Source: Lophium mytilinum
Lineage: Eukaryota
Reading direction: 5' to 3'
DNA: 64,000 nucleotides
NCBI GenBank assembly: GCA_010093605.1
Contig: MU004188.1
Coordinates: forward strand, 2,061,918-2,125,917
Shown: positions 10,942-60,972 of the stretch, piece by piece
Numbering within the stretch: the first letter of the stretch is position 1
Layout: the number at the start of each line of letters is the position of its first letter
Notes under the pieces: model-generated
Database searches by the model: none
What the model was told of the DNA's origin: nothing
What the model saw: only the letters and a program-made list of their open reading frames with translations
Position numbers and translations under genes: made by a program

Positions 10942-11092
10942 TGTTAAAATTAGGTTATATAGATTTAATTACCCCTTAGATTATACTAAGGGAGAGGAGA
11001 CTATATAGCTATAGTTTTATATACTTTAGTAGAATTATATAGTAAACTAGTTAGTATCTATACTATTAATAAAACCCTTACTAGTTTTAATA
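10942..11092 (-). repeat. 3' LTR of the copia element
   Basis: Near-identical to 18671-18821; TG...CA ends partly converted to TA by RIP. Confidence 0.92.
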
Positions 11093-12289: not shown

Positions 12290-12720
12290 GTCTAGTCCTC
12301 TATATATAGTTAATATATATAAAAGCGTTTTTAGATAATTTAAAATTACTATTAGTATAAAGGGACCCGCTTTTATTTTTCTAGTAGACCCGCTTAGCCC
12401 GCTTATTACTATAGTTATAGTAGATCTAGGTCTCTATAAGTAGGTTTAGTTCTCTATAAATAGTTAATATATATAAATATATTCTAGAATAATTTAAATA
12501 TCGCTATTAGTATAAAGGGACCCGCTTTTATTTCTTTAGTAGACCCGCTTAACCCGCTTAGTACTATAGTTATAATAGATTCCGGGTTTCTATATATAGC
12601 TAAATATCTAGAATACTTTTTTAAGTAATTCTAGTTATGCTATTAAGTATAAATAGACCTACTTTTTCTATTTTTATAGATAGGTCTACTTTTAGTACTA
12701 TAGGTATACTAGATCTGGGT
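12290..12720. repeat. ~155-bp tandem repeat (2-3 copies) inside the copia element, between pol and the extra 3' ORF
   Basis: AGGGACCCGCTTTTATTT at 12361 and 12516, with a degenerate third copy around 12600-12720. Confidence 0.8.
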
Positions 12721-15700
12721 TTATTTAGATATTATATGCTTATTTTAATCGGTTTTAGCTAATTTACACGTTTCTAAGGGTTATTATATTCTCCCCCTCT
12801 ATCTAGAGCGGTAAATTAAGAAAGAATAGAGTATAGAAGAAGTCTAGTAATCTAGAAAATCTAAAAACCTTATAGGAAAAATAGAAAAGAATTCTTAAAT
12901 AGAAGCCTTATTAAAACCTATATATATAGAAAAGAGTACTTCCCCTTTAGTACGCGTATTCTTCTAAACTAATTGCTTTTTAAAAGAGTAGGAAATAATC
13001 TTTTAGTAGTGCTTTTATAAGCCTATTAGCTACTTATTTCTCTATTAGTATAAATTAGAGGTTAATAGTATTATTAGCTTACTTTTCCTATATATAGTAG
13101 TGTTAGATAGCTATATACTTAGTCTAGAAGTAAAACTGCGGGTTTCTAGCTAAGGTAATTACTTCTTAGTTGTCGCTATATATAATTATTACTAAAGGTA
13201 ACTTTATAGTTAAGAGCTTTTAAAGGAGACTCTATAGCTATATAGCTTCTTTTATAGCTTATATTTCTTCTATATATTTAGCTTTATATAATAAGAGTGT
13301 AACTACTAATTATTATTTTAAAGACTAGCTAATAGCTGCGCTGCTAATATTAAAGATATATCTAGCTATAGAGTGGCGCGTCTCTTAGTCTTCTACCTAG
13401 TTAGAGTTAGTATATTTTATAAGAGGTGCTAATTCCCCTTTATATACTAGGCGGAAGTTAATAGTGCCTTATAGGTACTAAAGTACGCGTTTAACTACTT
13501 TTTTATGCGCTAGTGCTAGATTTACTAGGTATTAGCTATATACTAACACTATATATATAATATCTAGGTAAGTGCTAAGTATAGTATATATTAGAGATTT
13601 AATAGCTCTTATATACTATACTTTAAGTTCTAGCATTACCTTATAGTCTTCTACTAGTACTTTAATGCGGCTAGTGTCTATAGGCGTAGCGTATAGTTTT
13701 CCCTTATCTATTTTAAATTTAGTAAGGACTTTAGATATATAGCCTTATTAATTAAGTGTAAGGGTTTAATTCTATCTATTATATATAATAGATATTTCTA
13801 GATAGTAGCTATATAGGCCTAGGTCTAATATCTAGAAATAATTATTAAGTAGACTCTTAATTTCCTAGATTTTATTATATAATAGTTCTATAATTAATAA
13901 GTTATCTATATATACTATAATAAATATATAGCCTTTAGAAAATATAGTAAGGTCTAAATCTAATAGTAAAAAGCTATAACCTTTTAGGTAGGTAGCTAGA
14001 GTATAGTACTATATTCTAGGCGATTATTTTAAGCTATATAACGCCTTATTAAGTTTATAGACTTAGTTTCTAGGTTAGCTAAGGCCGCGCGGTTATTCTA
14101 TATAGATTTCTTTATCTATATTACTATATAGAAATGCTGTTTTAATATCTATCTACTTAATTTCTAGGTTAAGGGCTATAGCTATAGTAAAGATAGCTTT
14201 ATAGCTTATAGGCTTAACTACTAATGTAAAAGTCTTATAGTAGTTAATTTCTTCTTATTACTTAAAGCCTTAGACTACCTACTAAGCTTTATAGCGTAGA
14301 ATCTCTCTAGCAGGCCTATATTTAAGTTTAAATACCTACTTTCCTTCTAGAATGCGGTAGTTATATAGTATATTTATAAGGGTCTAGATATTATTTTCTT
14401 CTAGTAATAGAACTTTATCCTTTATAGCCTTCTTCTACTTATTCTAGAGTAGATCTACTTAAGCTTAATTAAATATTTTAGGTTTAAATAGCTTAGTAAC
14501 AGCGGCAGCAGCTATTAGGCTTAGTAGAGCTATATTTTAATCTAGTCCTCTAGTAGTAGGTCTAGTTTATATTTCTAGCTTAAGTTCTTCTAGTAGCTCT
14601 AAGTTAGCTAATTATAGATTCTTAAGTGCTACTTTTAGAATAGCTAGCTTAGTAGTTATATATACTCCTTCTTCTAATTAATTTAGATTTAGATAGTTAA
14701 GTGTTGCTATTTCTAGAACGCGGTATCTATCTAAGTTAAGAGGTAATTCTAAATAGATACTCTATATACTTTATATATAAGTTATAGGTTCTCTAGGCTT
14801 AACTTATATATACTAACGTTTCTATAGAACCTTCTATAATAGTAGTACTTACTTTAGGTTATTCTATAAGGGCTAAGCGCGTACTAACTATATATATAAT
14901 AGCTGCCTTTATATTAGCTGCGTGTATATAAATTATACTAGTATTAGTAAGTAAGCTAGTAAACTATAATAAGACGGTAATTATAGCAACTAAGAAGAAG
15001 TCTAGTACTATAATGGCGTAGAACTTTATATTTATTTTAGTAGAGAAGAGTTACTTTTATTTCTATCTCTATTACTATTATATAGATTGCGAGTAGTACT
15101 TAGTTATCTCTTTTAGCTAAGACTTATTAGTGCGGCAGCTCGTATAAGAAGTGCAGCTATAGTAGTAGAATTTACTAGGTTTTATAGTAGTGCGTTAACT
15201 TTATACTACTTTCTAGTATAACTTTATTCTTCTAGATAAATAACGTCCGTTATAGTTAGAATTTAATTATTCTTATTTAATAACCGGTAGTATTATTCTT
15301 CTAAGTATCTAATTAGCGTATATATTTTAGTTCTTATATATCTAATTGCCTTTTAGTCTCTCTCTTTCTTTAATGTATAGCATTTTAAGCTAATTATGCA
15401 TAGCTAGAATAGGTCTAGAAGGTTGCCGTGCTAAGCTTAGTATAGAGTTATACTAATTACTAAGCTAGGGCTTTAGTTTTAAACTATAATAACTACTTAT
15501 AGTACTTCTAGCTACTATTTTAAATTTAGGCCAGCGTTAAATAGCGTAGGGTTTAGTTTAGAGAGTATATACTAATTAAGTACTTCCGCGGAGCTATTTT
15601 CTTAGTATTAGTCTGTTTCTATATATTCTAGAAGAATTCCCCGGTTATAGTAGTACTCTTAAAAGATTCCTAAAATATTCTCCCCTACTTAGTCTAGTCT

Positions 15701-18670
15701 AATGCGCCTAATGCGGCGCTTAATAGTCTTATTAGAGTTAATAAAGTATTTTAAATAGTAGAAGAACTTGTCTCTTTATTTAAGTAGGTAGACCTATGCA
15801 TTCTAGGTTTTATTATAGAGAAAGGTTATCTAGTATTTTACTCTATTATATTCTAGTATAAAAGAACCGGCTATATCTATATAGATTAGTTCTAGTAGAC
15901 TAGTTTCTTATTAGTTATAATACTTATAGAACCCCGCTTTTATCTAACCTTTTATGTAGCCTATATATAGGCAGTCTAGGTTAAGTAGCTTTATACTAAC
16001 TAATATTCCTTAAAGTTTATAGAGGTTTTATTTGCCTAGGTAAGCTATTTATTTATACTAGATTTAAAGCGTTAGGTCTATAATTTTATATGCAGCTATT
16101 ACTAATATAGGCGTAATATCTTTCTTCTACTATTAGATTGCGTAGACCCCCTTTTAGTGGGGTGCTAGAATAGTAACTCCTAAGAGTTCTATTATAGCTT
16201 AATAGGGTTTAAAGCTTACGCGTGCGCCTTAGTTTATTAGTTTTAAGACTAATATAAGGTTATATCTAAAGCCGGGAGTATATAATATATTAGTAAGGTA
16301 GAAAAGAACCTACTATTTCTTATAGTTATATTCTAGCTAAACTATTCCTATTTTAGTTAGTTAGGTAATAGTTTCTTTTATTTCTTCTATTCTAGGGCCT
16401 TAATATGGCTTTATTATAGATTTAATAAAGTCTTTTTAGATACTGCAATAGTAAGTTAAATAATCTATATTAATTAGCTAGATATTATTAGGTATAGTAG
16501 ATGTATTTACTATATAGGCAATATAGTTAGTTTCTTCTAGAAATTTAAAATTAGCAGGAAAGACTACTAGGTTAGCGCTATATTCCTTAATAGTGTCTAT
16601 TTTCTAGCGCTTTAAGCTAGATTCCTTAGAATTATTAGCCTTCTTCTCCTATTTTACCTTTCTCTTAGCCGCCTTCTTTTCTTTAAACTTCTTTTCTAGA
16701 TATAGGTAAAGTTTCTAGTAGGTAGAGGCGTTATGCTAGGCCTTCTTTTTATAATAAGTATAATACTTATTATAAGTATAGTTTTCTTTTCTATTTCTAG
16801 TACTATATAATTTCCCTTTAGCTTGCGTGGCTATTATAGCTTTTTTATATCCTTTATCTACTTTAAGAGAAGTCTTGTAACGTTGCATTACTATAATAGT
16901 AGAGCTAAAGTTTAAAGCTAGTCTTATAATAATACTAGCTGCATCTCTTATAGAAATAGTTAGATTTTAAGTTTAGAAGAGGTTAGCTAATATTTAGTAG
17001 TCGGTTCTAAGTCTATTAAAGAAGTTATTAATTAAGTATACTTTACTATATTTGCAGGTTAGATTAATATTAGTAAGGTCTTAATTTACTTCTTAAAGCT
17101 TATCTATAAAGTCCCCTACGCTTATATAATTATTAAATAATATATTACTATAGTTAAGTTAATGCTAATAGATTATCCTATAGTCTACGTCTTAAAAGTA
17201 GAGGTATAGGGCGTTAAGTAGTAGTGCTACTTATTTAATATTATCTATTATATATTATACGTTAAACCCGCATTAAGTTATAATTATAGATATTACTTAG
17301 TCCTAATAGTTAAGCTATTTATTTAGCTTTTCCTTATATTTCTCTATCTTATCTTTCTATCTTATAATTAATCTAGCGTCTACTGCTATTATAGTACCTA
17401 AATTTAAAGGTTAAGTAGATCTACTAGCTTTCTATTCTACTATAGAGGTGTCTATAGTAACTATTATTACTATTTAAGAATCTAGAGGAGCTATTAGTGC
17501 TATCTAATTCTATCCCCCTACTAGAAGATTGCTAAAACCGTTTATTTATAGCTATACTATTATTTTCTAATTCTACTAAATCTAGCTAGTTAATAAGTTA
17601 AGTTTCTTAATCTAAGCTAGCAACGCTTTACCTATCTTAACCGGCATAGCGTCTTAGGGTAATTAGTTCTAATCTAGAGGATAAAGAAGGTAAAGAAGTT
17701 AGTTCTAGCTTAGATAAGAATAACCTAGATAATAATTCTAGTAAGAATCTAATTATAATTAGAGCTGGAGAGTATTAATAGGGTAGTATTTCTACGCGGA
17801 GTAATATATAAGTCTACTATATAGGTGCAGGAGATATACTTAGTATCTCTAATTAAGATAAGATAGCTTCTATAGTTACTTTAGGCCTTAGTCTAGGTCT
17901 TAACTATACTAATAGTCCCTATAAATTACGGCTATTAATACTTAATAGAAAAGTATTATTTATAGAGTAATTTAAGGTAATAGTAGTATCTAATGCGTTA
18001 TTATTAATATAATCTTTATTAGTGCCGGCGATAATTTTAAAATAGGTATCTTACTTATCTAATAGTCTAATATCTTAAGGTCTTTTAGTGTATAGCTTAA
18101 AGGTACTAACTAAGAGGTCCTTAGCTAGGTATTAGAAGTTGTTTTAATTTAGTATATAATAGACTTCTTTCCGGGTAGGCTTTAGTAGATAAGGTTAAAG
18201 GTTGTATATCTTTTAAATATATAATAGTAGATAGAGAGAGTATATTAAACTTATTATAAAGAGAATTTTCTTCCCTTTAAGTATTTTAAATGTTATTTTA
18301 TAATAGCGGGTACTTACTTTATTATTACTTAATTAAACCGGGCATGTAAGGGCCTAGATCTAGACATTTATTCTAGATATAAGGGGTTACTAGAGTATAT
18401 TATATATAGATAGCTTAGGTAGAGTAGTACTATAGTTAGTATAGGTCTAGATAGGTCTAGCTAGATATTATACTAAAGTTTTAACGTTTTTAGTATCTAG
18501 ATCTAGTCTAGATTTCTAAATATAGATTAATCTACTTAATTCTATAGTTAGATTATATAGAAGGTTGCGTAATAAAAGGGTAGTAGTTAACTATTATAGA
18601 TCTCCTATATATTTTTAGTATATTATTATATAGATATTAGATAATACTTAGCTAAGCCGGGCTTATAACC

Positions 18671-18821
18671 TATTAAAATTAGGTTATATAGATTTAATTA
18701 CCCCTTAAATTATACTAAGAGAGAGGAGACTATATAGCTATAGTTCTATATACTTTAGTAGAATTATATAGTAAACTAGTTAGCGTCTATACTATTAATA
18801 GAACTCTTACTAGTTTTAATA
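18671..18821 (-). repeat. 5' LTR of the copia element
   Basis: Near-identical to 10942-11092; preceded on the + strand by GGGCTTATAACC. Confidence 0.92.
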
Positions 18822-19450
18822 TAAAGCTCTACCTAAAAATATTATAAGGTTATAATTATAAATTATATAGTTAAATTCTTATAACTTATTCTTAATTACT
18901 AAATAATATTAAAGGACTGCTAACGGTGTAATTAAAGTATAGTAAATTGGTATATTAATCTATAATATTATAATCCGAACATCTTAAGATTATCTTAAAA
19001 ATTAATACTGGGGGACCCGTAACGGCGTTATAATACTGCGAGGAGAAATATATTAAACCGCTTCTTTTCTTTCTATTCCCGGATACCCCCTTTTCTTCCC
19101 TTCTTGTCACCTACCCTCTTTTTCGCCATCTGCTTTTTCACACATCTGCGTACACCTGCATACCGCCGTCTGAAGTCCCTCAGCACACTCTCCCAAACCC
19201 GATCGACGTCATTTGCACGACCCGGACACCTCGCCAGGCCACCTCAGACAGCGGTGACCCACGTTCCTCCAACACTCACATGTGATCCGGAATAAAGTCT
19301 CCCCGCTTCCGACACAGTTGTTTATAATACTTCACCCACCGCGCTTCCACCCTCTCTTCCTTGTACGACCCTCTTTCGAGCCTTTCGTCAACCTTCATCA
19401 CACGCTTCGTCACCACGCTTTGTAGCCTTTCGTCACCCTTCGTACACAAG

Positions 19451-20766
19451 ATGGATCACTACACAACCCTCGGCGTCGCTCAAACTGCCACCAAAGATGC
19501 CATTCGCACCGCGTACAAGAAGCTCGCGCTCAAGTTCCACCCAGACAAAGTCACCGACCCCGCCCACCGCGTCGCCAGCGAAGAGGCCTTCAAGGCCGTA
19601 GGCAACGCGTACGAGATCCTCTTCGACGACAAGAAGCGTGCCACCTACGACGCCCACATCGCCCACAACAACGCCATCAACGCGAACAACCCCAACAACG
19701 CCACAAAGCGTCCTCGGACTCAGCAGAACAACGCCCCAAAGCCTGCCCCCTCCGCGTCGAACTTCTACCCAAAGCCCACGCAGTCCGGTCCAAACTTCCA
19801 CCAAGTCCCGATCTGGAACGGGTTTCTCTGGGTGTACCAAGTTGGCACCGGCGTGAACCAGTACTGGGCCCCTTGGCCTACCTCCTGGCCGACCCCTTCG
19901 CCTGCCCCCACCCCCCCTCCGCGTGCCCAACATCCGCCACCACCGCCGCAACAGGCCCCCCCTCCACCACCCCCTCCGCGTCCGACGCTAGCAGAAGAAG
20001 CCTCCCGAGCCGCCGTACGCGCCGTCGACCAGCGCGCGCAGAAGAACGCCCAAGACGCGAAGAAGCACGCCGCCGAGGCCGCTCGTTGCGCGCAGAGTGC
20101 CCGCGTTTTCTTTGCCGACGCCGAGGCCCTTGAAGAAGACCTCCTCGTCGCCCTTGGAGGGGACGATAATGCCGCAATAGCGGTTTTGGTGAAGAAGCTG
20201 GCGGAAGCGGCGAGTACGGCGAGGGACGCTGCGGGGGAGACGCTGAGAGCGTGGCAGCAGGTGGTGAAGGTAATTGTATCCATTGCTCCCTTTTCTGCCC
20301 TTTGTGGTTCTTTTGAATGTTCTTCTATTTGTGGTTTTGGTGGGTTTGGTGGGTTTACTGGTCCCCTTCGTGCCCTGTCCTTCACCCTCTCTACCCTTCT
20401 GTGTCTTGTTTTGCTTGTTTTACATATTGTCCTTCATCCATTTCTTCTCACAAAGCTAAACAAACTCTCAAAAAGGTGGCCACAGACGCCGTGGCGGGGT
20501 ACGCCGAGGCCGGCCGGCTGTGGGAAGCCGCGGCCGCGCTCTCCTACCGGGAGCGAGGCGGCGAGGGGCGGAAAGAGGTGGCAGATTGCCCGGGAGCGTG
20601 CCGGAAGGCGGCCGGGGAGGCGGAGAAGAGGTGCCAAGAGGGGCGGGAGAGGGTGGAGGAGTGGGAGAAGTTGGGGGGGAAGGGGGGGAAGTGGGTCGAG
20701 GAGAAGTGGAAGTGGGCCTCGGAGCTGGCGAAGAACTGGAAGATGCACCTGCCGGTGGAGGGGTAG
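19451..20766 (+). CDS. J-domain (DnaJ, class C) protein with a Pro-rich linker and Ala-rich helical C-terminus
   Basis: MDHYTTLGV...IRTAYKKLALKFHPDK...FKAVGNAYEILFDDKKRATYD, with the HPD motif. Intron 20270-20475 joins to VATDAVAGY...MHLPVEG* in the 20317..20766 frame. Confidence 0.85.
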
Positions 20767-21199
20767 GTGCTCCTTCTGGTTCTTCTCCGGCTCTGGGGGG
20801 GTTGTGGGGGCCGTGGCGTCGCTGTCGTGGCCGTGGCGTGGCGTCGCTGTCGTGGCCGTGGCGTGGCGTAGTGGGAGAATAATGAGAAGTGTTTGATGAT
20901 GTGACTTGAGACTCTTACTTGTGATGTTGGTTCTTGTAGCTTTTGACGTACTGTGGTAATTCTGGCGGTGCGGGATGGCGTTTTGGGGGTAGTGCAAACA
21001 CCCTCTGGCGCTCCTGGGCATATGGTTTTTTTAAGAAGTGAATGTCAAGTGCTCCACCCCGTGATCCAGGAGTCGGGCTTTCTAACTCTGTTTCATGCGA
21101 ACTCTGGCGTACTACTGTAACTCCAGCTATCTAGCCGTACGTTTTGCGGGATGTTACAATCATGAATGGTACCCCAGAGCGTTTCGTTTCGTTCGGGAG

Positions 21200-22190
21200 T
21201 GAATGTCAAGCACACCACGCTGTGAATCAGACAGCCAATAATCTAGGGCATAATACCGCCGTTAGAGGTCCTCTGACGTGCTTTAAGAATCGAGAACGGG
21301 ATGTAAAGCACACCACGCTGTGAATCACACAACTAACAACCCAGTATATGATACCGCCGTTGGAAGCCCTCCAACGTGGTCGGAAAATGGGAAACACGAT
21401 GTAAAGTCTGTTGTACTGTAAATTGGGCAGCTAGTTGTTTATAGCGCGACGCCGCCGTTAGAGGTCCCCCGACGTGCTCTAAACATTAGAGACGCGAGGT
21501 AAAATCTATCACGCTATGAATTAGGTAGCTGATATTTATAGTGTGATACCGCCGTTAGGAATTCTCCAACATGCTGTAAGAATCGAGAACGTAATGTAAA
21601 GCCTCTGTTGTCGTGAATGAGGCTGATTTCTTCCGCAGTAGGATGACACCGTCTGAAGTCCTCCAACACACTTTTCAAATCGAGAGCGTGATGTCAAATC
21701 TCAGTTATTGTATACTAGACTGCGAGCTTTTCACAGCGTGATGACACCGTCTGAAGTCCTCTCGCATACTTTGAAATTTGAGGACATAATGTCAAGTCTC
21801 TGTCGTCGTACATCAGCATGCTGGCTTCGACACCATAATGACACCGTCTGAAGTCCTCCAAGGCTCCTTCTAAATCGAGAACGTAATTCAAAGCCTCTGT
21901 AGTCGTATACAAGGATATAAGCGTTTCAAAGTATAATGGCACTATTAGGGGTTCTCTAGCACCCTGTTAGAAACGGGAAGGAGATGAGAAGTCTTATTCG
22001 TCGTATATTAGCATTCTAGCATTTTACAGCAGGATAGCACCGTCTGAAGTCTTCTAGTGCCTGTTCAAAACTGAGAATACGATGTCATGTCCCCGTCATC
22101 GTATATCAGCATACTAGCTCTTAGCGGTATGATAACACCGTCTGAAGTCTTCCAGTACCTTTTAAAAAATGGGAACGAGATGTAGAAATC
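21200..22190 (+). repeat. Diverged non-coding tandem array, ~10 units of 97-98 bp
   Basis: The core CCGCCGTT / ACACCGTCTGAAGTC recurs at 21256, 21354, 21452, 21549, 21646, 21744, 21841, 21939, 22037 and 22135. Confidence 0.9.
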
Positions 22191-22676
22191 TTTCCTTCGT
22201 GATTCTCGAAGTCGAGATTCCTCCCTCGTCCAGAATGCTCAAAATACGACGAGGCTCCTCACGCAGCGGCGAACGTCGAGCAAGTGGACGGATACCTATA
22301 ACGAAGCAATGTATTAAAAGTTTTGCCCGCTTGACGCCACTGTAAGGAGTGCCTCGGCCTTCACATGTTCAGCCTGCTAAAAGGTAGCGACTCATGGCTT
22401 CCCTGGACTGTGGACGTCCCTGCTTCCCATTTCTCGTTCCTAGCCTCCCCTTCCCATCTCCGCGTCTCAGAACTTCACTTCCTGTCAACAAACATACCAT
22501 TCTCAGATTATCCCTCCAGTCACCCGTTTCAACACATACCATTATCGTATCAGCTATCCCATCATCCATTCGAGAACTCACTGTCTCGTCTCATTCGCTC
22601 ACCTATTCGTTCGAGAACTTGCTGCTCTCATCTCATTCGTTCCGAATCTCCACCGTCGCATACTTGAACGTTCAGT

Positions 22677-23441
22677 ATGGCTACGAGGCCGAGCATGATG
22701 TCCAAGATCAGAGAATTGGAAAGACGATCTGTAGCGGTGATGTCGAGGATCAGGGAACCAGCCATACGCAAATACACAACGCTCACGCTCCGTGCCAAAC
22801 TCTACTTTCGCTCGGCCCACTGGGACGAAAATAATGACCACTATTTCGATGTCTACCTGGAAGGCCACCAATGGCAGTCCAAACGCCTATACCTGACTCC
22901 AAGCGATAACTCCCATTCTTCTTATGACATTTCCTTTGGACTTGGAAACTACGACATAGACTTCCACCGAGATGACGGTCCGGTGCTCGGCCGCCAGATT
23001 ATATGCTCAGGCGACATCGGCCCCTTGCACCCCAATGGGAGTACTACGTTGCTGAGATTTTATTCCGATGCTCATCAAAGCCATGTTGGAGGCCAGAACC
23101 TTGGAATGATGCTGCAGCACTACCGGACAGGGAGGCGAACGCTTCTTTTTTCTTCTGCTAAATCTCATCCGCGTCGGAGGTTCGTATGGACACGTCTTAA
23201 CGCCGCCTTTCCTACCCGGACGGTGCCTGATATTGGTCTGGGCCTCACCGATGATCAGGGGAATGACTGGGTGCACTTTCAGAACAATATGCCTAAGGTT
23301 TTGATACACAAGAGGAGTAAAGTGGGAAGGTTGTATGTATGTGAAGGCAACCTGTTGCAGGAGGTTGAAGACATTGTCGTCGCGAGCTGCATGGCCGTGT
23401 TGATGGAGGGGGAGCCTGGTTGGAAGAGGCTGGCTCGCTGA
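22677..23441 (+). CDS. Hypothetical 254-aa protein (possibly tubby/LURP- or DUF6593-like fold)
   Basis: Intronless ORF. The C-terminal pattern RRFVW...L.LTD..G...VGRLYV...EDIVVASCMAV resembles fungal beta-barrel-plus-helix proteins; family is a guess. Confidence 0.55.
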   Translation: MATRPSMMSKIRELERRSVAVMSRIREPAIRKYTTLTLRAKLYFRSAHWDENNDHYFDVYLEGHQWQSKRLYLTPSDNSHSSYDISFGLGNYDIDFHRDDGPVLGRQIICSGDIGPLHPNGSTTLLRFYSDAHQSHVGGQNLGMMLQHYRTGRRTLLFSSAKSHPRRRFVWTRLNAAFPTRTVPDIGLGLTDDQGNDWVHFQNNMPKVLIHKRSKVGRLYVCEGNLLQEVEDIVVASCMAVLMEGEPGWKRLAR

Positions 23442-27292: not shown

Positions 27293-30200
27293 CTATAGGC
27301 TTTTGAATGATGCGAGTAACTCTTGCGATACCAGCCGCGAAGGATGGTCGTCTCGGAGGGCGCGCGCTTTAACTGCAACCACGTACTCAAGCAGCTCTAC
27401 CGCCTTCTTTACTTGTCCATCCGCCTTATATGCTCTTGCAAGGTCATGTTGTGATGCTAGTCGGCTTCGATGATTCTCTGCTAGCGCCTTTCGTAGCGTA
27501 ACTATGTGTTCCAGCAGCTCTAGGGCCTTCTTTACTTGTCCATCTGCGATGTATGCATTTGCAAGCGCGTGTTGTGAAGTTAGCCGGTCCGGGTGGTCCT
27601 CCGTTAGCACTTCATGTGCTGCGACTACGTGCTCTAGCAGCTCTACCGCCTTCTTCACCTGTCCATCTGCTTTGTATACTACTGCAAGCTCATGTTGTGA
27701 TGCTAGTCGGCGCGGGTGGTTTTCCGCTAGCGCCTCTTGTACTGTAACTACGTGCTCCAGCAGCTCTACCGCCTCCTTCACCTGTCCATCTGCTTGGTAT
27801 GCTCCTGCGAGCGCGTGCTCCGATGCTAATCGGTCCGGGTGGTCCTCCTCTAACACCTTCTTGCGCACGTTAACTACATGCTCTAGCAGCTTTACCGCCT
27901 TCTCGATTTGTCCATCTGCTTGGTATGCTCCTGCAAGCCCGTGCTGCGATGCTAGTTGGTTTGGGTGCTCCTCCTCTAACACCTTCTTGCGCACGTTAAC
28001 TACATGCTCTAGCAGCTTGACCGCCTTCTTGATTTGTCCATCTGCATAGTATGCTCCTGCAAGCGCGTGTTCAGATGACAGCCGACTCGAGTTATCCTCA
28101 TCAAGATGATTCCTCCCTCGACAAGATTCCTCAAGCCACTTCACTGCCTCTCGGATCCTGCCGTCAGCGTCCAAGCAACGTCCCACCCACCAACACAGTT
28201 CGGACCTCTCCTCGAAATCAGAGTCCTGCAGAATCTCTAGCAGTCGTATCGCATGCGGCATATACGCTCTCCACACTGCTTGATTCTCGTGTCTGTCTGC
28301 CGGGAAGACTTTCGTGACACGTCGGAGTGCTTTGTGTGTAATTATCGCCATAACATTGGCCTGGTTGATCCATATCCTAGTTGCTAGGTGTACAAGTCGG
28401 TGGATATCGTACCACTCCTCCTCACCTTCTTTCTTCTCCCGAGTTTCCTTCTGCCGTCTTGCTAGGAAAGAGTACGCACAGAGCGTGCCAATGGCCTCAT
28501 CCATATGGTCTTGCGGCCGCACGCTCGGCAGGATGGATCGCGGTATTGATTTCCACTCGACGCACGACATGAACTCCAGGAGGGTTGCCGCTGCCGGATC
28601 CTGCGTCCGAATTTGGTTGAAAGACACCACCCAAGTGGTGGCTACCGCATTAGACGTGTTTTGGTTTGGTTTGGTTTCGTGGGACCCGCTGCTTATGAGT
28701 TTGTATCGTGTGATGTCGCGGAATTCTCTGCTCATGAGGCGGACAATGCTCTGCTCCGTGCTCCGGAGCAGCCCCAGGTACTTCGCAATAGACATCGGTT
28801 TCCGGTTGAGATAGGCAGCTGCTTGAGCAATGGCCAGAGGTAGGTATGTCAACTCGTCCAGCAGCTCACTCGTGGCCGCACTGTCGCGGAGGAGGTCCTT
28901 TCTCAACGACGGCTTCAGCGACTTCTCTAAGAAATCGGCGGCGTCTTCTGGGTTCATTGCCTCAAGCTCTATGACGCCGTCTGCATCTGTTAATAACTCG
29001 ACTACATCTGGCGTACGCGTGGTGAACAAAAATAGGCCCTCCTCGCTCCTCGGCAGGTAATCGTATATTCCCTTCGACTGCTTAGTTCCAAAGATGATAC
29101 CTGGATCGTCTGCGTTATCAAGAACTATCAGCCATCGCCCCGCTTGTGCTGCACTCAAACATTCTTTTACTAGCTCTTTCGCATCCTCATTTGGGTCTGT
29201 GGCTCGAGGTATGCGCAGGAGTTTCGCAACTTCCACACACGCCTGCTCAAAGGTCTCCATGCTCAGAGCGGACATCCAGAAGATAGAGCAGTCTGGCCAA
29301 GCTTCTTTTACTTTGTACGCGAATTGTAGCGCAATCTGTGTCTTTCCAGTTCCACCGAGCCCGGCGATAGACATTTTATGGCAGTCCGGATTTTCCATCA
29401 GCTTCTCTTTCAGCACGTCGAGTTCATGTTCTCTTCCAGTAAAGGATGGATTCTTGAAAAACGGAATATAATAGATTGCAGGTTCTATTCTAGCATCAGC
29501 GCTAACATACTAGAGAAAAAGACGACCGATACACTAACTGCTTGCGCTTTCCATGGCCTCTTCTACCGTCGGGACAGCCGTCACCTCTGACGGCATTAAC
29601 ACCGAGAGCAGCTCCTTTGCCCATGCTGCCGCCGTCCCCGCCGCATACGGCTGCCACTTCTTATTCTTGTGCGAGTCGGCATAGTCGCAAATACCGCGGA
29701 TGACGAGGCAGGGGAAGCGGTTCATCAGCCCCGCTGCCTCCATTTCAAAGCAAAGGACGCCGTCGAGCTCAGCGCTGACCCTATCTCTTTCAGCAGCATT
29801 CTTCATAACCAGATTCCCAGATGCAATTGTTCCGTAATGCACCATCACTTCCTCTCCCTTCTCACGCGGCGGCCGACTCTCTTGCTCTTCGGCGCTGCAC
29901 CGGTCACACGTCGGCCCTTTTTCGTGGTCGTATGTTGCTTTGAACAAAATGTCAGGTCCCGTCTTGGTGCGCTGGAACTTGGAAACATTGTCGAACTTGG
30001 CGATGTGCTCGGCGAGCCTGCTTCTACCCCTGTTTTCGTTTGCACGCACTCGCGCAACCGCTCCCAGTAGCTTCGTCGGCGGAAAGGCCAGCGACCCCAT
30101 CCGCTTGAATCCACTTAGCGTGTCCAGTCCTAGGTCGAATTGTACCACCCCGCCGAAAGTACTCTCCGGTTGACTGACCACCACGTCCCCCAGGCGAATA

Positions 30201-30514
30201 TCGGCCTCAGCGCTCGGCACGCCTCCGCCAATTCCCACCATCAGCCCAAACCGGATCCGCTTGAACGTCGCCCTCATCTGCACGGCGACCGCGGCCGCAG
30301 AATTCGTGCCAATCTGACCAGCTGGCAGACATCCAATCACCACATTATGTCCTCCTATCGACCCCAGGGCGTATAGGTTCTCGTCGTTGTCGCCGAGAGC
30401 GAGCCCAAGGCTGGGGTGCTCTTCCTCGAGCATCTCCTGCGCCGCGGCCAGCTCGATCGGGAGGGCGCATATCCATCCGATTGTGTAGTCTTCGCGGCGT
30501 AGCTGGGGAGCCAT
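27293..30514 (-). CDS. Fungal NLR: PNP_UDP_1 effector + NB-ARC + kinesin-light-chain-type TPR repeats (~1055 aa)
   Basis: Exons 30514-29539 and 29484-27293 (intron 29485-29538). PNP motifs [44 protein letters not shown]. Walker A GLGGTGKT, Walker B WLIVLDNAD. About 7 repeats of 41-42 aa (HPxRLASQHxLAxAYxADGQVKKAVELLEHVV). Confidence 0.93.
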
Positions 30515-40594: not shown

Positions 40595-41324
40595 GGATGC
40601 CTTGGTAGGTTTCAAAGTGTGTGTAGTCTAGAAGCAGGAAGCTATGCCTTCCAAGTGAAATGTCGACTGGCAGCTGAAACTCTTCAACTACTTTCTCCTC
40701 ACTGGAACTTTAGCCTTATCCCCGTATCGGAAACAGGAACTGTAGGCCGTGTAAGTGATATTTTGGAAATTGATGACTGGTTTTGTAGGAGGGAGAGAGG
40801 TCTGGAGGAAGGTGAGGCTATATACAAGTACCTGCCGTAGCCCCCACCGCTACTCCCTGACGTTGCCTTTACTACCTTTCGCAATCATACACATATACTA
40901 CATAGGCTTGGTTCTTTCGGCCTACGGAAACGTCTATTAGGTCTATCGAATCCGTCTCTTCGTACAAGACGTCAAGTAATGGTCCCTGCAGCTGCTCTCT
41001 CAGCAGCTCATATAACAAATCTGCCCATGTACGACGAAATATCCGCTCCTGCAGTTTGCCATGACGGCAAGGTAAGGCATCTCTTCGAGAGTAGACAAGC
41101 CAAGTATATCACGTCCAGCATGTGCCAAAGAGAACTGCTTCCAGTTCTACGACTTCTCAACTCGAACTGCAAAGACTCAGGGACTATGTCGACTTTCGGA
41201 CTGTACAGATTGGATTGCTGTTTAGACCTAGTTCCTCCTAGTCAACCATGCTTCCCCTAACAGTGGTGACCAGTAGTAACAATTGAGCGGGCAAGTGACA
41301 AATCTGTGAACCTAGACTTATGGT

Positions 41325-42286
41325 CTATCTAGTACTGTACGACTCCTGACCTGTGACTTCGCCTCTCGCTTGATCTCTCTCCCTTCTTGCTTGATCTCTC
41401 TCGCCTATGGCTTGATCTTTCTCCGTTATGGCTCGATCTTTCTCCGTTATGGCTTGATCTCTTTCTGCCATAACAGTTCGGAACTGGGCGTCGAGTTGCG
41501 ATAAGAGGGCGAAAGGTGAAACAAGCCCGTATGGTTGCTGAGGCGCTGGACCTTGGCCGCTACTTGTCGTTATGTTAGCTTTGAGTTTGACAAGGAGAAG
41601 CGAAAGAGAACGTACAGGGCTTGATGCGGCTGCGTGAGAGCTACCTGAGGCACTGAAATGGCGTCTGAGCTCGGTGGTGGGACTGGTTGGGAGGAAGATC
41701 TCAAAGCTAGGACCAGAGGCGGCCAGGTTAGAGGGCCCTGCTGTTGCGGAGGCTGCGGTGCTCTGGCAGGCTGCTGGTTTAAAAAGGCAGCGGAGTCTTG
41801 CGCTGCCGGCTCATTAGAGAATAATTCGGCACCTGGCGTGTAGATGGGCGGCCCAGTATTCTGTTTCCACCAGTCCCAGGAGGCGTAGAGGTATTGACAG
41901 GCCTGGATAGGTTAGACTGAGTTCTTTGTAGTATGTAGGGAGCGACATACTTTTCCTACATGCCCCATCGAGCCGCAGTAGTAGCACTTGTTTTCGCAGT
42001 TTAAAAAACCGACGCAATTGCCTCCGTGTCTCTCGCGGAGTTGGTGGCATCGAATGCACTTTGAGTGGTCAGGTGTACCACCTACGTCCGTCATCTCCGT
42101 ATCAAGGATTGTCCAATACTTTGGGGGTCGATAGCTTTGAGCTCCTGAGGCTTGACCAAGCTGCTGAGGGGCTTGATCGGGCTGTTGATGGGCTTGATCA
42201 GGCTCTTGATAGGACTGATTGCCGCCCTGGGCGTAGGCCGGGCTTTTTGGGTTATGTGCTGAGTCATTGCGGTTGTGGAACGCCAT
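41325..42286 (-). CDS. CCHC zinc-knuckle protein with Gln/Pro-rich linker and heptad coiled-coil tail (3 or more exons)
   Basis: Introns 41903-41950 and 41563-41615 give CIRCHQLRERHGGNC..CYYCGSMGHVGKAC, then ERDQAITEKDRAITEKDQAIGERDQARRERDQ (the 21-bp repeats at 41360-41475). 3' end uncertain. Confidence 0.65.
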
Positions 42287-43754
42287 GCTTTGCAACGTTT
42301 TCAGCTAATTATGGAGTGAATGATGATGATGAGTGAGGGAGAGAGAGAGAGGAGGCGGCGCCGAGGTGTTTACCTCGCTGCTCCGACGAAAGGCGCTAAG
42401 CATCGTGACCCGATGCCACCTGCCCATTATAGAGATTGCGTAGGTACTGTAACTCTTTCCTTAAACCTGACTTTCTGCACTGACTTTATCGATCTCGGCA
42501 CCTACAAGACGCCCGCGACGTCCCGCTCACGCGGCGCATAAAAAAGGTGGCACACTCAACCGCTTTCTGCGTCTTATACACTTGTCTACCGCTGTCTGTG
42601 GTGCTTCAATACATTTTTTGAAATGTAAAAGAGGTAGAACCTCCCAGCCTTGTGATATCTAGAAACTTGTTGAAGCACTCCAAGCAGTGGCAGACAGGTG
42701 TACACACGAGACTGCAAATGACAGATCTTAATGAGTGTGCCACTTTTTCCTTGCCCGACGTGCCGCTCTCCAGCTGGCAGGCTATCTCTACCCTGCAACG
42801 GCATTCCTCCCGACGTACAATCCCAAAGTTCCCGACGCTACTGCATTCATAGCCGGCGCATTGAATTCGGACAGTAGGGACCACAGACACCGGTACACAT
42901 GAACCGGCGGGCAGGAAGTGAAGGGTATCAAACTTGCGTATATTCGATACGCTTAGATGTCAGGCTACGTGACAAACTTGGGTTTCGTAAATTGCTCCGA
43001 GCGCATCGGTACTGGCGTTGACATCCTTTGGAAGAGGTATGCATGGGTACGTTGAATTAAGCTTCTGACTTGTTTAGTCCTGGATTTATAGGCGCGAATC
43101 GACTCTAGGGTATGCGCGGCGGCTTCGCTTTAAGGTGTTCGGAACTCCACCTCCTCCCTCTCACCCGGAAATGTTCGATATATCCCGTCATGTAGATTCC
43201 ACTAAAGTACCCTTGAGAGCAGCGATTGATTTGTGAGTAATTTCTTGCTCACCAGTTCAAATCTCCAAGCTTAAGAACTTTCCATGGTGCCTGAAACTTC
43301 GAGCTCAGGTCGGGACATCCCCGACCGTGGCGGTGTTCATGACCCCAGTATGCAAGGGACTGTGATACCCACAGTCGAAGTGGTTACATTAGCTTCGCAA
43401 TTTTGCCGTCATTTGAAGAACTCTTGACAGTAACACGCACTGATCTGCTGAATTTGGAAGTGGGATGAAACTGGCCAGGCTGAATCGAATGCTGATATTT
43501 CGAAACATCCTACCTAGAGCCGGAGGAAATGGGACACTTGCTTGGGGAAGCGTCGACAAACTAGGATGTATGCGGGTGCCCCAGTAATGGAGAAGGATCA
43601 GCGGTCTACAGTAGCGTCAGAACGATTCGAATGAGATCATCCGTGTGTCTTCAAAGGCTATCCCATCATGTGCCCTGAACAGCACGGAAGAAGTCGGCAC
43701 CTAATTTTCTCATACCAGCTTCTCTTCAGGAGAAGAGTACGAAATCGTGTCCTC

Positions 43755-55841: not shown

Positions 55842-58800
55842 TGTGGATGCGCTTCCGACGAAATTAACGAGCCAGGGAGATAGAAGAGAGAGAAGAGAGC
55901 AAGTCTTTCGAGGACAAGAATCGAGTGATAGGGATGGTGAAGCGTGAATGTAGGAAAGCCGACGGAGGTCGGGTTCAAAAGGAAAGGCGATTCATTGAAA
56001 TACTGAAGCTACTAGAGGAGACTACAGCCTAACGCCCAGAGCCTATGACGACCTCTCAGTCCCCAAGCTGCATCGGATCGTCGCTCAAGAGGAGAGATAG
56101 AGTGTTTTCAGGATGTGCGGACGCTCGGCATCCTTGGGAAGATCTGGGCGTGCAACGTACATAGTCGAATCTTCTCCACCAGGGATATCTACGGGAAGAC
56201 GCCAAGTCTCTTGGAAGTGGGGAACAGCACACGAATCTTGGGCCGGTGTATCATTTTAACGCGAGTCCGGCGCCGTATCCCCTGGGTCCTCTGGTAGACT
56301 GTTGCTACTTATAAGATGTTTTCTTTGCTAAGCCAATAGCTTTCCAGGCTACCTCAGACGGTTTTGAACTGCTTGAGAGCGCCACTTTTTTCCTGCCTAG
56401 GTTGGTATGCTGGCCGCTTCGGGTAAAGTCAATCGGGACGATGATACTTCGTAATCCCGACAGCTGCGCTAAACGGTACGTGTTGGTGTCGGTTCAATCT
56501 TAGACCACCTCATCCATTCAGCGATACAACCATACACACATCCACCTGTCTGTCAACATGCCAGATAGAATCAGCTCTTACTTGACAAGGCCTAGCGAGA
56601 AGAGAGAGACGCCGGGGGCGTATACGCGGAATTTCGGGCTTAGCTACCAACTCCACGAGATTGTAGAGAACGTGCAGCGAGATGGAACAAGAGTTTACAA
56701 TAACAATCGTCTAGCGAAGTTAAAAAGCAGAGGTCGAGAAGAAGGCTAAGCCTCTTTATACTACTCTATTTGACTCTAGTAAAGGTTCCGCGGAGGGCCC
56801 GATTTCTTTACTCGTTTCGAGGTCCTTACTCACTTTTCCGCTTAGTCGATACATATCCATTACTCCCTCGGCTTCTGACAAGGCACTGTGCCAGCGGCTA
56901 ACTGTGAAGACCGTTTCGTGTGCGAGAGAATGTCCCGGCTTCTTTGCACTTGGCAAACCCTAGATACCATTTCTTTCGATGAGATATGCCGTTTCTATTG
57001 ACACAAGCTTGAGAAGTCCTCACGGCCAGATTACCGCTGCGGAAAGACCATGGTCCCCGTCTTCACTTCTCGATTTCGCTCTTTGTAGCGCGTGTTCGTT
57101 CTGAGAATGAGCCGTTGAGCAAATGACCGAGGCTATACCACAAGGGGATTTTTGCTCACTGATTGCATTCATTTGGTACAGTCATTGCCAATGGAATCTT
57201 TTCCCCACCAGAGTTCTTCCAGATTTCTGGATGACTAGGCCGTCGTACAAACTCAACGAGGCAGCTTCTCCATCACAGGCACCGCTCTACTTATCTACCA
57301 CTCCAAAGTTCCCGCGCTCTGGTAGTTTGACGCTCCGCGGTACTATATTCACGAACTGCTGCCAACCTCGCGCACCACTAATGCACTTAGGGGCTAGTAA
57401 GGCCTCATGACATTGACCCGATGCTGGTCAAACAGCTTTTAGATGCTAAAGCCTGCAAACTTCACTCTACGGTTCCAATGCAGTTGGGGATGATTCTCTT
57501 CGACATATCACAGATTTTGAACGTCGAAAGCTGCCTCCTCCATCGCCTCCCAGCGCTCTTTGAAGTGTCGTTGATGTCAGCTGTGGGAGCCGCGTCCCCA
57601 CTGACCTCTACAGCGCCCTCCGAGTATCATCCAAGGTAGGCATGAAGCCGAACGCATCACGACACAGACACACTGTGTGGTGTCTTATCGCATTGAACAT
57701 GGTCATCCGACCATTTTCGAACCTGGAGTTGCAACCCCTGGCGAATTTCCCAACCTTCCCGAACAGGCTTGGTACAGCATATGCAGCAAGCATTGCGATT
57801 CTAGGATGCTGTCGCCAAGCTATGCCAGTCGACGATAAGCTTCTTACAGCACGTCCATTTCGCCGATCTCCCGGTCGATGGATGCCCAGAGCTTGCGTGC
57901 TTGCCAGGGCTACAATGCCACCTTCTGTCCAAGACTTCATATATCAAATGAGGCTTTCCCTGGTACCATCAACGAAGTGCCGGAACTGCCGAACCACACC
58001 ACACATATATTAATGGTAACGCCACATAGCCGAAACTTGTCTCAACTGGGTTGGGTGCCCGTTAGCAAAACTCGTAAACGCCCGAAAGCTTGATCCGTCG
58101 AAGCAATGCGCCTCCCGTCGCCAATACTCCGCTAGCACGCTATAATCGCGAACATCTCCACCATCTCAACCTTAGCGTTCCTGGCCGCTATAAACGCAGG
58201 AGATCATGCAGTATTTGTCCGCGGAGCGGGACGTTCCTCGCTACCCGCAAGCGAATGAGCTACGAATGCCGCGCTAGTCTCGACATAGAAGGTCGGACCT
58301 GAGTCTTGATCTAGTGCCGTTTCTTGTGGCATCTTCAGCCGGCTTCCAATGTTGCTCAGAACCTCCAGTTTGCTCAGGGACAAGAGTGAGTCGCCCTAGA
58401 AGAGCCTTCAGTCACTGCCAAAGCCATAGAGGTCGTAGTCATGAAGCTGACTTGGATCTATTATGTACCTAGCTACTCCCAACGAAATCAAGAATGACTT
58501 GAACGGCAATCGATCTCGTTTCCTGTATACGCCAAGACGTTTAAATGAATTGATAAGCTTTAGTGGCGCTGTCCGTGTCCAGGCTTATCCGTCTCATGTA
58601 CGGCTTTCTGGTCGGTTCTTAACCTACGTGGCAGGGATAACCTGATAAAGTTGTTGGCTTCGTATATTAAAATGCTGCAAGAACATGGCAGCCTTGTCAA
58701 ACACGCTGGTCCGCAAAATGGGTTTTCTACTGTCTTGTGTGTTAATCTGTTCATGCTTGGGGTGCTTCAATGAGGTTTCCAGTATCCAAACCCATACCGT

Positions 58801-60072: not shown

Positions 60073-60315
60073 GTGCTTGCTGGGGAACCTCGACGTACAG
60101 TGTCTGGTTATAGATCTGGCACATGGATATTTCACTCCGCGCATCCTACTCTTGCTCGCCCCATAGCACCGGCAGGGGAGTCTGTTAGCTAGCCCTCAGC
60201 TCGTCAAAACGTAGTCTAGCTCTCAATGCATTCAATTATACATGAGGTCTCCCTTGTCCGGACTTCGAATATTGCGGTACTATAACACAAGTTTGGCCGC
60301 TCCTTACAGCTGTCT

Positions 60316-60972
60316 GGAGTATCCTGGTAAGCTTTTGAGATATCAAATTTGATGAGGAATCCTACACAACATAAATTGGGCCATCGTTTGACTGGCTGGA
60401 GACATACTGGCTGGGGTAAACCTGACATTGGTATCCAGTTAGAAAGAGAGGGGTTACGGTGTTGCGAATTGAAGCTCTCGAGTATTGTGGTATGCTTTTG
60501 AACCTCTGAATACAGTGTAGAATCCCGCACACTATAAATTGGGCCACCTTTTAACTGGCTGAAGATATACTAGCTGGGGTGCACCTAACAGTGGTACCTA
60601 GTCAGCAAAAGAGGAGTTATGCTCTTATGGATTGAAGCTTTGGAGTATCCTGGTATGCTTTTGAACCTCTAAATACGATGGGTAGTTCCACACAACTCAA
60701 ATTGGGTCACCGTTTGACTGGCTAAGGACATACTAGCTGGGGTTAACCTGACAGCGGTACCTATTCAGCAAAAGTGGAGTTACGTTGTTATAATTGAAGC
60801 TCTAGAGTATCTGGGTATGATTTTAAACCCCTAATTACGATGCAGAGTCTTATACAGCACAAATTGGGCCACTGTTTGACTGGCTGAAGACATGCTACCT
60901 GGAGTTAACCTGACAGTGATAACTGGTTAGCAAGAGATGCGTTATGTTGTTACGAATTGAAGCTTCAGAGTA
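60316..60972 (+). repeat. Diverged non-coding tandem array, ~4 units of 162-163 bp
   Basis: AAATTGGG(C/T)CA recurs at 60373, 60536, 60699 and 60861; ACTGGCT, ACCT(G/A)ACA and ATTGAAGCT recur with the same period. Confidence 0.92.

What the first reader, a model, noticed from the sequence alone, without database searches (positions are those of the whole stretch)
21200..22190. ~10 x 98-nt non-coding array with hairpins showing compensatory changes: candidate multimeric structured-RNA locus
Seen: the period is strictly 97-98 bp (not a multiple of 3, no ORF), yet unit sequences are strongly diverged and drift along the array (core CCGCCGTT in units 1-4, mostly ACACCGTCTGAAGTC in units 5-10). Stems sit at equivalent positions. 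Unit 4 TATCACGCTATGAAT (21507-21521) pairs 15/15 with ATTTATAGTGTGATA (21534-21548). Unit 3 has different sequence, GTTGTACTGTAAAT (21410-21423) with GTTTATAGCGCGAC (21437-21450), yet pairs 13/14, with A-T to G-C double changes. A second stem is CGTTAGAG/CTCTGACG (21260-21278) in unit 1 and CGTTGGA/TCCAACG (21358-21376) in unit 2. Non-Watson-Crick pairs are mostly G-T on the + strand. Inference: length and fold, not sequence, are conserved, as expected for a polycistronic small-RNA precursor or a repeated RNA/protein-binding element. It lies between a J-domain gene and an intronless orphan on the same strand.
Basis: partly seen in the sequence, partly recalled or inferred. Interest (0 to 1): 0.75.

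Follow-up and report, generated by a model that had tools for sequence, protein, structure and literature searches.

The report
Helix-phased DNA sites riding fungal transposons
This 98-base repeat is not a folded-RNA cluster but one example of a short DNA site found at probably thousands of places in a fungal genome, set either face to face or in rows at distances that match whole turns of the DNA helix and carried inside two unrelated mini-transposons, which points to an unidentified DNA-binding protein.

Summary
The array is real: 11 units of 97-98 bp, non-coding. The RNA reading is not supported: no consensus fold on the + strand, covariation equal to shuffles, both strands pair alike. Each unit carries one copy of a ~35-bp site found genome-wide (227 strict hits vs 7 control; 32 clusters in 464 kb not picked by motif), almost only in non-coding DNA. 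Sites form head-to-head pairs 89, 99, 110, 122 or 132 bp apart (126 of 128 pairs). They also form single-site arrays with periods near 10.66n+1.3 bp (170 of 200 spacings). The same pair sits inside two MITE families, one with TA and one with 5-bp target duplications. Most loci, this one included, have no recognisable MITE ends. Best reading: an old transposon-derived DNA module bound by a protein that needs both sites on one helix face; this array is a local amplification of half a module. A replication origin is a weaker rival. The scan noted similar arrays elsewhere in this genome, once with weak phasing (identity unchecked). No protein, function or second species is shown.

The parts
21139..22190 (+). 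Tandem array of 11 units of 97-98 bp, each one site plus the left interior of the module
21241..22155 (+). Ten same-strand sites (core position 0 at 21257, 21355, 21453, 21550, 21647, 21745, 21842, 21940, 22038, 22136; matrix scores 15-30); core consensus YRCCGTYWGRRGTSCY
21143..21178 (+). Decayed eleventh site (core position 21159), placed by non-core homology; below matrix score 5
22249..22284 (-). Opposed site (position 0 at 22268, score 13) facing the last unit at 132 bp; closes the array as a head-to-head pair
22322..22357 (+). Further same-strand site (22338, score 22), 202 bp after the last array site
21030..21060 (+). Upstream remnant with the ATGTCAA sub-motif, 161 bp before the same sub-motif of unit 1
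   Evidence: (family D8)
19148..19269 (.). 89-bp head-to-head pair (+19164/-19253) just upstream of the DnaJ gene; two more minus sites at 18928 and 19027
19361..20766 (+). DnaJ-domain gene upstream of the array (domain about 19454-19651; exon limits and an intron near 20271-20476 inferred from the sequence)
22677..23441 (+). 254-aa ORF downstream, no Pfam family
42527..42764 (.). Copy of MITE family 2 holding a 99-bp pair (+42590/-42689)
41186..41327 (+). Decayed part of MITE family 1 (65% identity over 142 bp to a young copy)
60308..60972 (.). Second array of the family in this window, period 163 (+60308/-60430 pair at 122 bp, minus sites every 162-163 bp)
56285..56400 (-). Single site (56363) beside a remnant of a MITE-2 terminal repeat

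Best explanation
The array is a local head-to-tail amplification of one half of a genome-wide DNA module and acts as DNA, not RNA. The module is two ~35-bp sites facing each other at 89, 99, 110, 122 or 132 bp. SHOWN: the family, the pair spacings, the phased periods, the non-coding location, and carriage by two MITE families with different target duplications. INFERRED (1): the module began as the terminal repeats of an extinct TA-targeting (Tc1/mariner-type) miniature element, and was later enclosed by two younger MITEs. INFERRED (2): its sites are now bound by a host or domesticated protein that bridges or bends neighbouring sites and needs them on the same helix face. That would explain why added single sites survive only at whole-turn periods (66, 98, 108, 130, 141, 151, 161, 172, 193, 203), while repeats of complete pairs may have any period. 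The likely role is chromatin-architectural or regulatory. The family assignment and DNA-level phasing are about 0.9 likely; the stated confidence is for a host protein still binding and selecting these sites.
For: Family: 49 vs 2 control hits, 227 vs 7; 80 vs 6 sites in 464 kb not picked by motif. A profile of only the non-core part of the focal units gave 27 hits outside the array, 19 with the site at the expected place, and 0 hits in reversed DNA. Pairs: 126 of 128 in five classes, best period 11.0; 22 of 22 in the unselected DNA. Direct spacings: best period 10.66 in a 6-20 scan, R 0.51 on 125 locus-collapsed values, jitter null maximum 0.30; 90 of 125 within 2 bp vs 47 expected. Single-site units 170 of 200 in phase; pair-containing units 46 of 89. 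Non-coding arrays found by TRF: 26 of 27 rows with the site are in phase, against 3 of 9 with matrix score under 5. Core identity 0.755 vs 0.631, higher in 21 of 21 arrays whose units were accepted on non-core columns; focal 0.68 vs 0.56. In 14 MITE-1 copies picked by terminal repeat: cores 0.91 vs 0.85 between them (p 0.012), no gaps between the sites. Two carriers: TA on both sides in 19 of 26 MITE-1 rows; perfect 5-bp duplication in 9 of 19 and 8 of 15 MITE-2 copies. Sites are present in 20 of 20 and 18 of 20 loci picked by terminal repeat alone. TA at -13/-12 in 49 of 118 and 27 of 44 ends of 89- and 99-type pairs, with flank symmetry ending there. Two Tc1-type elements of this genome also begin TA|CAC. 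Only 2 of 80 unselected sites fall in coding-labelled DNA.
Against: No binding protein, footprint or phenotype. No second species: two metagenome scans gave 0 hits and 1 chance hit in bacterial-looking coding DNA, so cross-species conservation is untested. Arrays were chosen because they hold sites, which inflates core conservation; the core beat the best control block in only 13 of 21. The MITE-2 conservation test was ill-formed (cores 0.86 vs 0.83). About a third of the cluster-collapsed spacings are the 104-109 class, which may have one ancestor. The fit dropped 10 of 125 values, and one array (L040, 75-87 bp) is off phase. No preference for promoter or terminator context. Both MITE families were found through the module, so 'two of two' is not a blind sample. 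The MITE terminal repeats themselves resemble the site, so a shared transposon origin remains possible.
Confidence: 0.5

Rival explanations
1. Selfish relic only. The sites are terminal or inner transposase-binding repeats. Spacings were quantised while the elements were mobile, because very short transposons need their ends on one helix face, and arrays arose by transposase-linked or in-register recombination. No host function now.
For: TA|CAC ends of old pairs; carriage in two MITEs; helical size periodicity is known for short transposon-derived IESs and bacterial transposons (PMC3464196, passages); no gene-context bias.
Against: The two carriers have different target duplications, so one transposase is unlikely to need the site in both. 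25 of 32 unselected clusters, the focal one included, lack either terminal repeat yet keep sites. None of 26 transposase loci has the module at its ends or either MITE repeat. Synapsis of inverted ends does not by itself phase same-strand arrays, and the core outlasts its neighbours.
Confidence: 0.28
2. Sequence-defined replication origins. Opposed ORC/Cdc6 sites load the MCM double hexamer between them. A MITE holding an origin replicates early and gains copies by jumping into unreplicated DNA.
For: Opposed sites, intergenic, about one cluster per 14 kb. Synthetic yeast origins with two opposed ORC sites load best at 70-90 bp (PMC12440816, passages). Yarrowia shows sequence-specific origins with only a reduced Orc4 helix (10.64898/2026.03.10.710760, Discussion).
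Against: Loading in yeast is insensitive to spacing and helical orientation from 70 to 93 bp, so phasing is not predicted. This genome's Orc4 wing is a glycine-rich loop that aligns with Drosophila, without the yeast helix. Yarrowia and S. cerevisiae consensuses match no better than permutations (186, 135 and 104 of 300). The base-skew jump at 300-2500 bp does not differ from random non-coding points (95% interval -0.007 to 0.072 for GC).
Confidence: 0.1
3. Ordinary decaying minisatellites; phasing arises from shared ancestry of a few unit lengths or from general duplication mechanics.
For: Units are 60% identical and drift along the array; the 108 class dominates the counts.
Against: About ten separate length classes fall on one 10.66-bp ladder. 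Site-free arrays are in phase only at chance level, 3 of 9. Pair spacings are quantised too.
Confidence: 0.08
4. One reading: a polycistronic precursor of ~98-nt structured RNAs.
For: Unit 4 has a 15/15 stem (z -2.07); stems beat slid registers.
Against: No consensus fold, no covariation, no strand bias; best Rfam E=1; relatives have periods from 66 to over 200 bp and occur on both strands.
Confidence: 0.04

Closest known systems
CERP2 and CELE2 MITEs of Caenorhabditis with m1m2 motif pairs bound by HIM-17 (10.1101/2022.01.21.477252; passages read)
   Same: Thousands of MITE-borne motif pairs at set spacings, in inverted and tandem arrangement, in two MITE families, with no known autonomous parent.
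   Different: There the spacing is 10-30 bp, the pairs are enriched at germline promoters and the binder is known. Here one site is repeated, spacings are 89-132 bp in whole-turn steps, arrays are phased, no promoter bias was found, and the two carriers differ in target duplication.
Paramecium IESs with ~10-bp size periodicity (PMC3464196; passages read)
   Same: TA-bounded, transposon-derived short DNA whose end-to-end length follows the helical repeat, read as looping between bound ends.
   Different: IESs are excised in development; period 10.2. Here there is no sign of programmed excision, the period is 10.66-11, and same-strand arrays are phased as well.
Tandem-repeat-containing MITEs and MITE-derived satellites (DTC84, PMC3879986; review PMC12628747; fungal MITEs PMC3227409; search listing and start of abstract only)
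   Same: MITEs with internal tandem duplications (here 151-153 bp inside MITE-1) and free arrays related to MITE interiors.
   Different: I saw no helical quantisation or shared inner module in those listings; full texts were not read.
Transib elements (PMC1131882; passages read)
   Same: MITE-2 has 5-bp, mostly GC-rich target duplications and ends beginning CAC.
   Different: No CACAATG heptamer with a 23-bp spacer and nonamer; no RAG1-like gene found (an uninformative blank).
Budding-yeast origins with opposed ORC sites (PMC12440816, PMC7560902, passages; 10.64898/2026.03.10.710760, abstract, passages and Discussion)
   Same: Opposed intergenic sites at a density fit for origins.
   Different: No motif match, no Orc4 helix, and yeast loading is not phase-dependent.

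Membership tests
Structured ncRNA array | Consensus secondary structure with covariation above shuffles | tested here: not met
Structured ncRNA array | One strand folds better (G-U bias) | tested here: not met
   63.0% vs 65.2% paired; unit z-scores
Structured ncRNA array | Match to a described RNA family or tRNA | tested here: not met
   best Rfam E=1; 0 tRNA genes
Structured ncRNA array | Transcription and processing to unit length | not testable with these tools
   only one run, kept as contigs, not on record as RNA
Tc1/mariner-type MITE (focal array itself) | Terminal inverted repeats and TA duplication around the element | tested here: not met
   both terminal-repeat matrices score below 0 on either side of the array
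Tc1/mariner-type MITE (family 1, ~210-230 bp) | 28-bp terminal repeats, TA duplication, high copy number | tested here: met
   394 vs 0 pattern hits; TA on both sides in 19 of 26 rows, one end of most rows picked with TA in the pattern
Tc1/mariner-type MITE (family 1, ~210-230 bp) | Autonomous partner with the same terminal repeat | tested here: inconclusive
   none among 26 transposase loci; searches give lower bounds
Transib (MITE family 2) | 5-bp target duplication and CAC ends | tested here: met
   perfect in 9 of 19 and 8 of 15 copies; 167 vs 0 pattern hits
Transib (MITE family 2) | Heptamer, 23-bp spacer, nonamer layout | tested here: not met
   the A-run starts about 13 bases from the end, against the layout
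Transib (MITE family 2) | Transib/RAG1-like transposase in the genome | tested here: inconclusive
   PF12940 found nothing here or in the controls
Sequence-specific replication origin | Opposed sites in intergenic DNA at origin-like density | tested here: met
Sequence-specific replication origin | Orc4 insertion helix | tested here: not met
   glycine-rich wing, Drosophila-like; read from a partial alignment, not a structure
Sequence-specific replication origin | Likeness to a known origin consensus | tested here: not met
   permutation test
Sequence-specific replication origin | Strand-composition switch at the site | tested here: inconclusive
Sequence-specific replication origin | ARS activity, ORC/MCM occupancy | not testable with these tools
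   needs experiment
Co-opted MITE promoter (CERP2/CELE2 type) | Enrichment at promoters | tested here: inconclusive
   tandem 56, convergent 22, divergent 19, unresolved 32, coding 15 of 144 clusters, like random non-coding points; rough home-made gene labels
Co-opted MITE promoter (CERP2/CELE2 type) | Bound by a defined factor | not testable with these tools
   needs pull-down or ChIP
CRISPR-like repeat-spacer array | Unique spacers between conserved repeats | tested here: not met
   the non-core parts are homologous between units and loci
TFIIIC B-box / ETC site | B-box consensus | not tested
   by recall only, the core has one base more than a B-box and lacks its invariant C; raised in e1-7554317

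The most novel reading that the evidence does not exclude
A filamentous ascomycete has a genome-wide, sequence-defined system of 2,000-4,000 paired, helically phased sites for a host protein (a looping or boundary factor, or the origin-licensing machinery). Two unrelated DNA transposon families independently captured the module because it helps them spread, for example by bending their short interior or by making them replicate first.
Probability: 0.3. Interest if true: 0.85.

Novelty: new variant of a known kind. Interest (0 to 1): 0.6.

Why it matters
I found no described origin motif, boundary-element motif or phased site system for filamentous fungi in my searches (CC-licensed PMC and bioRxiv only). 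A single site present about every 14 kb, with a whole-turn spacing rule, gives a direct handle: probes in and out of phase can fish out the protein, and pairs can be tested as origins or boundaries. If it is only a transposon relic, it is still a natural helical-twist experiment for eukaryotic MITEs. It would also tie together several arrays that this scan filed separately as unrelated old minisatellites.

Tried and rejected
Coding or intron-exon repeat: stops in all six frames; branch-site-like stretches were seen by eye in some units only and not pursued. tRNA, snoRNA or other Rfam family: none. Expression: no RNA holder listed; the one run, X1, is contigs of uncertain type and has no colinear contig over the array, which is no evidence either way. 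BLAST of the array against its own genome found only itself and one 56-bp match; the family showed only by pattern search. Other species: pair pattern 0 hits; single-site pattern 1 hit with no matrix score, in bacterial-looking coding DNA. These collections hold little fungal DNA and may omit near relatives. The scan's own index had no look-alike in other genomes. Origin tests: Orc4 helix absent, consensus match at chance, skew inconclusive; at 100-600 bp the GC jump was slightly more negative than the null, which I did not interpret. Indel scarcity (about 1 gap per 39 mismatches) was not used as evidence because I had no neutral rate. A/T dinucleotide periodicity around sites was weak and not at 10.66 (best 12.4 and 13.35). 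The first register test of stem 1 (permutation p 0.018 with G-U) ignored the 1-bp length differences and was replaced. An autonomous partner was sought among 14 DDE_3, 10 DDE_1 and 2 hAT loci without success. A three-part pattern for the focal subtype matched only unit 1. The MITE-2 conservation test failed because the copies hold two pairs.

Full report
Setting. The window lies in a 43.4-Mb, 49-contig genome. Spliceosomal-type genes, AT-rich blocks and stop-riddled transposases point to a filamentous ascomycete with RIP; this is inference.

Observation. The array is real. Units start every 97-98 bp from 21202 to 22179, and tiling on non-core columns adds an eleventh, decayed unit. All frames are closed. 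Mean identity between units is 0.60. The named stems exist. A DnaJ gene lies upstream and a Pfam-less ORF downstream.

RNA model tested. RNAalifold finds no pair on + and a weak, different fold on -. The minus strand pairs 65.2%. One of 20 unit folds passes z = -2. Rfam gives nothing better than E=1. The stems are inherited near-palindromes. Expression could not be tested.

A genome-wide family. A contig of run X1 matched only the 22-base core, with loose ends that looked like another unit. Pattern searches then gave 49 hits against 2 control and 227 against 7 (first 100 listed). I fetched 60 stretches around listed hits on contigs C1-C7 and built a weight matrix: 483 sites against 7 in reversed DNA, in 426 kb chosen by motif. 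Information extends from about -16 to +19 of the core YRCCGTYWGRRGTSCY, with weaker elements to +68. In 464 kb not chosen by motif (264 kb of C8 including this window, 200 kb of C10) there are 80 sites against 6 control, and 61 against 0 at a stricter cut-off, in 32 clusters. That extrapolates to roughly 2,000-4,000 loci. Two of the 80 sites fall in coding-labelled DNA, which covers about half of the sample; gene orientation shows no bias. A profile of only the non-core part of the focal units hits 27 places outside the array, 19 with the site at the expected distance, and none in reversed DNA. So the whole unit, not only the core, is homologous across loci.

Geometry. Sites face each other at 86-90 (60 pairs), 97-100 (22), 109-110 (2), 119-123 (38) and 132-133 bp (4): 126 of 128 pairs, best period 11.0. 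The 122 class is inflated by 20 MITE-picked loci, but in the unselected DNA 22 of 22 pairs fall in these classes. Same-strand spacings of 55-245 bp have a best period of 10.66 in a free scan from 6 to 20: R 0.51 on 125 locus-collapsed values, jitter null maximum 0.30, fit 10.66n+1.3 on 115 of 125 values, 90 of 125 within 2 bp against 47 expected. The rule holds for units with one site (170 of 200; 101 of 127 after sequence clustering; 0 of 1000 nulls). It is weak or absent for units that hold a complete pair (46 of 89; 29 of 57 after clustering, 583 of 1000 nulls). TRF-defined non-coding arrays with the site are in phase in 26 of 27 rows, three of them from this array. Arrays without a strong site are in phase in 9 of 16, and in 3 of 9 when those with a weak site are set aside. 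Caveats: about a third of the clustered values are the 104-109 class, these data overlap those used for the fit, and one array (75-87 bp, L040) is off phase. The focal period, 97-98, is n=9, and the array ends in a 132-bp pair (22136/22268).

Transposon link. The 122-type pair lies inside a 210-230-bp MITE with 28-bp terminal repeats and TA duplications (394 terminal hits against 0). All 20 loci picked by terminal repeat hold a site, 16 a pair, and several carry internal 151-153-bp duplications. The 99- and some 89-type pairs lie inside a second MITE with CAC ends and 5-bp duplications (167 hits against 0); 18 of 20 loci picked by its terminal repeat hold sites, and the two that do not are 92- and 111-bp deletions. 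A 5-bp, GC-rich duplication is a Transib hallmark (PMC1131882, passages), but the repeat layout differs and no such transposase was found. Only 7 of 32 unselected clusters keep either terminal repeat, and the focal array keeps none. Ends of 89- and 99-type pairs often read TA|CAC (49 of 118, 27 of 44), with symmetry stopping there, like two Tc1-type elements of this genome. This suggests the module was once a MITE itself. No autonomous partner was found among 26 transposase loci.

Selection. With units accepted on non-core identity only, the core is better kept in 21 of 21 arrays (24 tried, 3 gave fewer than three units): 0.755 against 0.631, focal 0.68 against 0.56. It beats the best control block in 13 of 21. 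The arrays were chosen for holding sites, so some bias remains. In 14 MITE-1 copies picked without the motif, cores are 0.91 against 0.85 between them (p 0.012), with no gap between the sites.

Mechanism. Shown: family, spacings, carriers, location. Inferred: a protein bridges or bends two sites on one helix face. Each 10-11-bp step turns both sites by half a turn relative to the midpoint but keeps them aligned with each other, which favours site-to-site contact over a centred nucleosome. Free spacing between complete pairs fits the pair being the working unit. I give 0.5 to a host or domesticated binder still acting, 0.28 to a pure transposon relic phased by transpososome geometry (compare IES periodicity, PMC3464196, passages), 0.1 to replication origins, 0.08 to ordinary minisatellites and 0.04 to RNA. 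Origins are attractive for density and opposed geometry. Against them, yeast loading is phase-insensitive from 70 to 93 bp (PMC12440816, passages), Orc4 here lacks the yeast helix (PMC7560902, passages), known consensuses do not match and skew is inconclusive.

Comparison and novelty. It works most like the CERP2/CELE2 motif pairs of Caenorhabditis (10.1101/2022.01.21.477252, passages), but is not a member: other motif, other spacing rule, no promoter bias shown. MITEs with internal tandem repeats are known (listings). I found no paper on helically phased fungal MITE modules, which cover only CC-licensed PMC and bioRxiv; supplements were not read. Earlier notes on this genome describe arrays of 108, 110, 150, 151-229 and 163 bp, and one raised phasing with weak support. 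They are probably this family, which I could not check. I noted the phasing, before seeing that note. Verdict: new variant of a known kind, interest 0.6.

Noticed in passing
L010 (G000:C17, about 1218760-1219600), run X1: The loose ends of one X1 contig match, by eye, two different units of this array about 834 bp apart, joined inside the shared core with no GT-AG ends. It may be an in-register deletion at the core in that sample, or a template switch. Bin depths imply the contig is much deeper than the DnaJ contig.
   Followed up: partly
window 19098-20634: One X1 contig covers the 89-bp pair and the DnaJ gene without removing the apparent intron near 20271-20476: retained intron, or X1 is DNA.
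   Followed up: no
L110, L116, L117, L121, L124, L051: MITE-1 has a ~380-bp variant made by an in-phase 151-153-bp internal duplication, whereas whole-MITE tandems (229 bp near C8:2036390) are off phase.
   Followed up: partly
L188-L207: MITE-2 comes as ~230-bp (one pair), ~360-470-bp (mostly two pairs) and 92-111-bp (no pair) forms with CAC ends and 5-bp duplications; its superfamily and transposase are unknown.
   Followed up: partly
L211:236-3384 (G000:C23): DDE_1 (pogo/Fot1-type) element with 46-bp terminal repeats and two long open frames, far less mutated than the other DDE_1 copies.
   Followed up: no
L094:723-2017, L105:737-2016: Small (~1.3 kb) DDE_3 elements with perfect 52- and 41-bp terminal repeats starting TA|CAC.
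   Followed up: partly
window 27293-30514 and 32325-34151 (- strand): PNP_UDP_1, NB-ARC and TPR domains in adjacent ORFs, a fungal NLR-type gene; next to it an ORF with a 99-bp repeat that looks ankyrin-like (not scanned).
   Followed up: no
window about 10000-19000: AT-rich block (GC 0.27-0.37) with a 155-bp duplication at 12289-12618, probably a RIP-mutated transposon region; it ends just before the sites at 18928-19253.
   Followed up: no
L167 (G000:C19): Orc4 gene with a long basic and acidic N-terminal extension and a glycine-rich wing; no canonical AT-hook seen by eye.
   Followed up: partly
L074: An 11-site array of the minimal 66-bp unit lies back to back with a 204-211-bp array of complete 89-bp pairs.
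   Followed up: partly
window 59251-60072: Peptidase A4 (glutamic peptidase) gene directly upstream of the 163-bp array.
   Followed up: no
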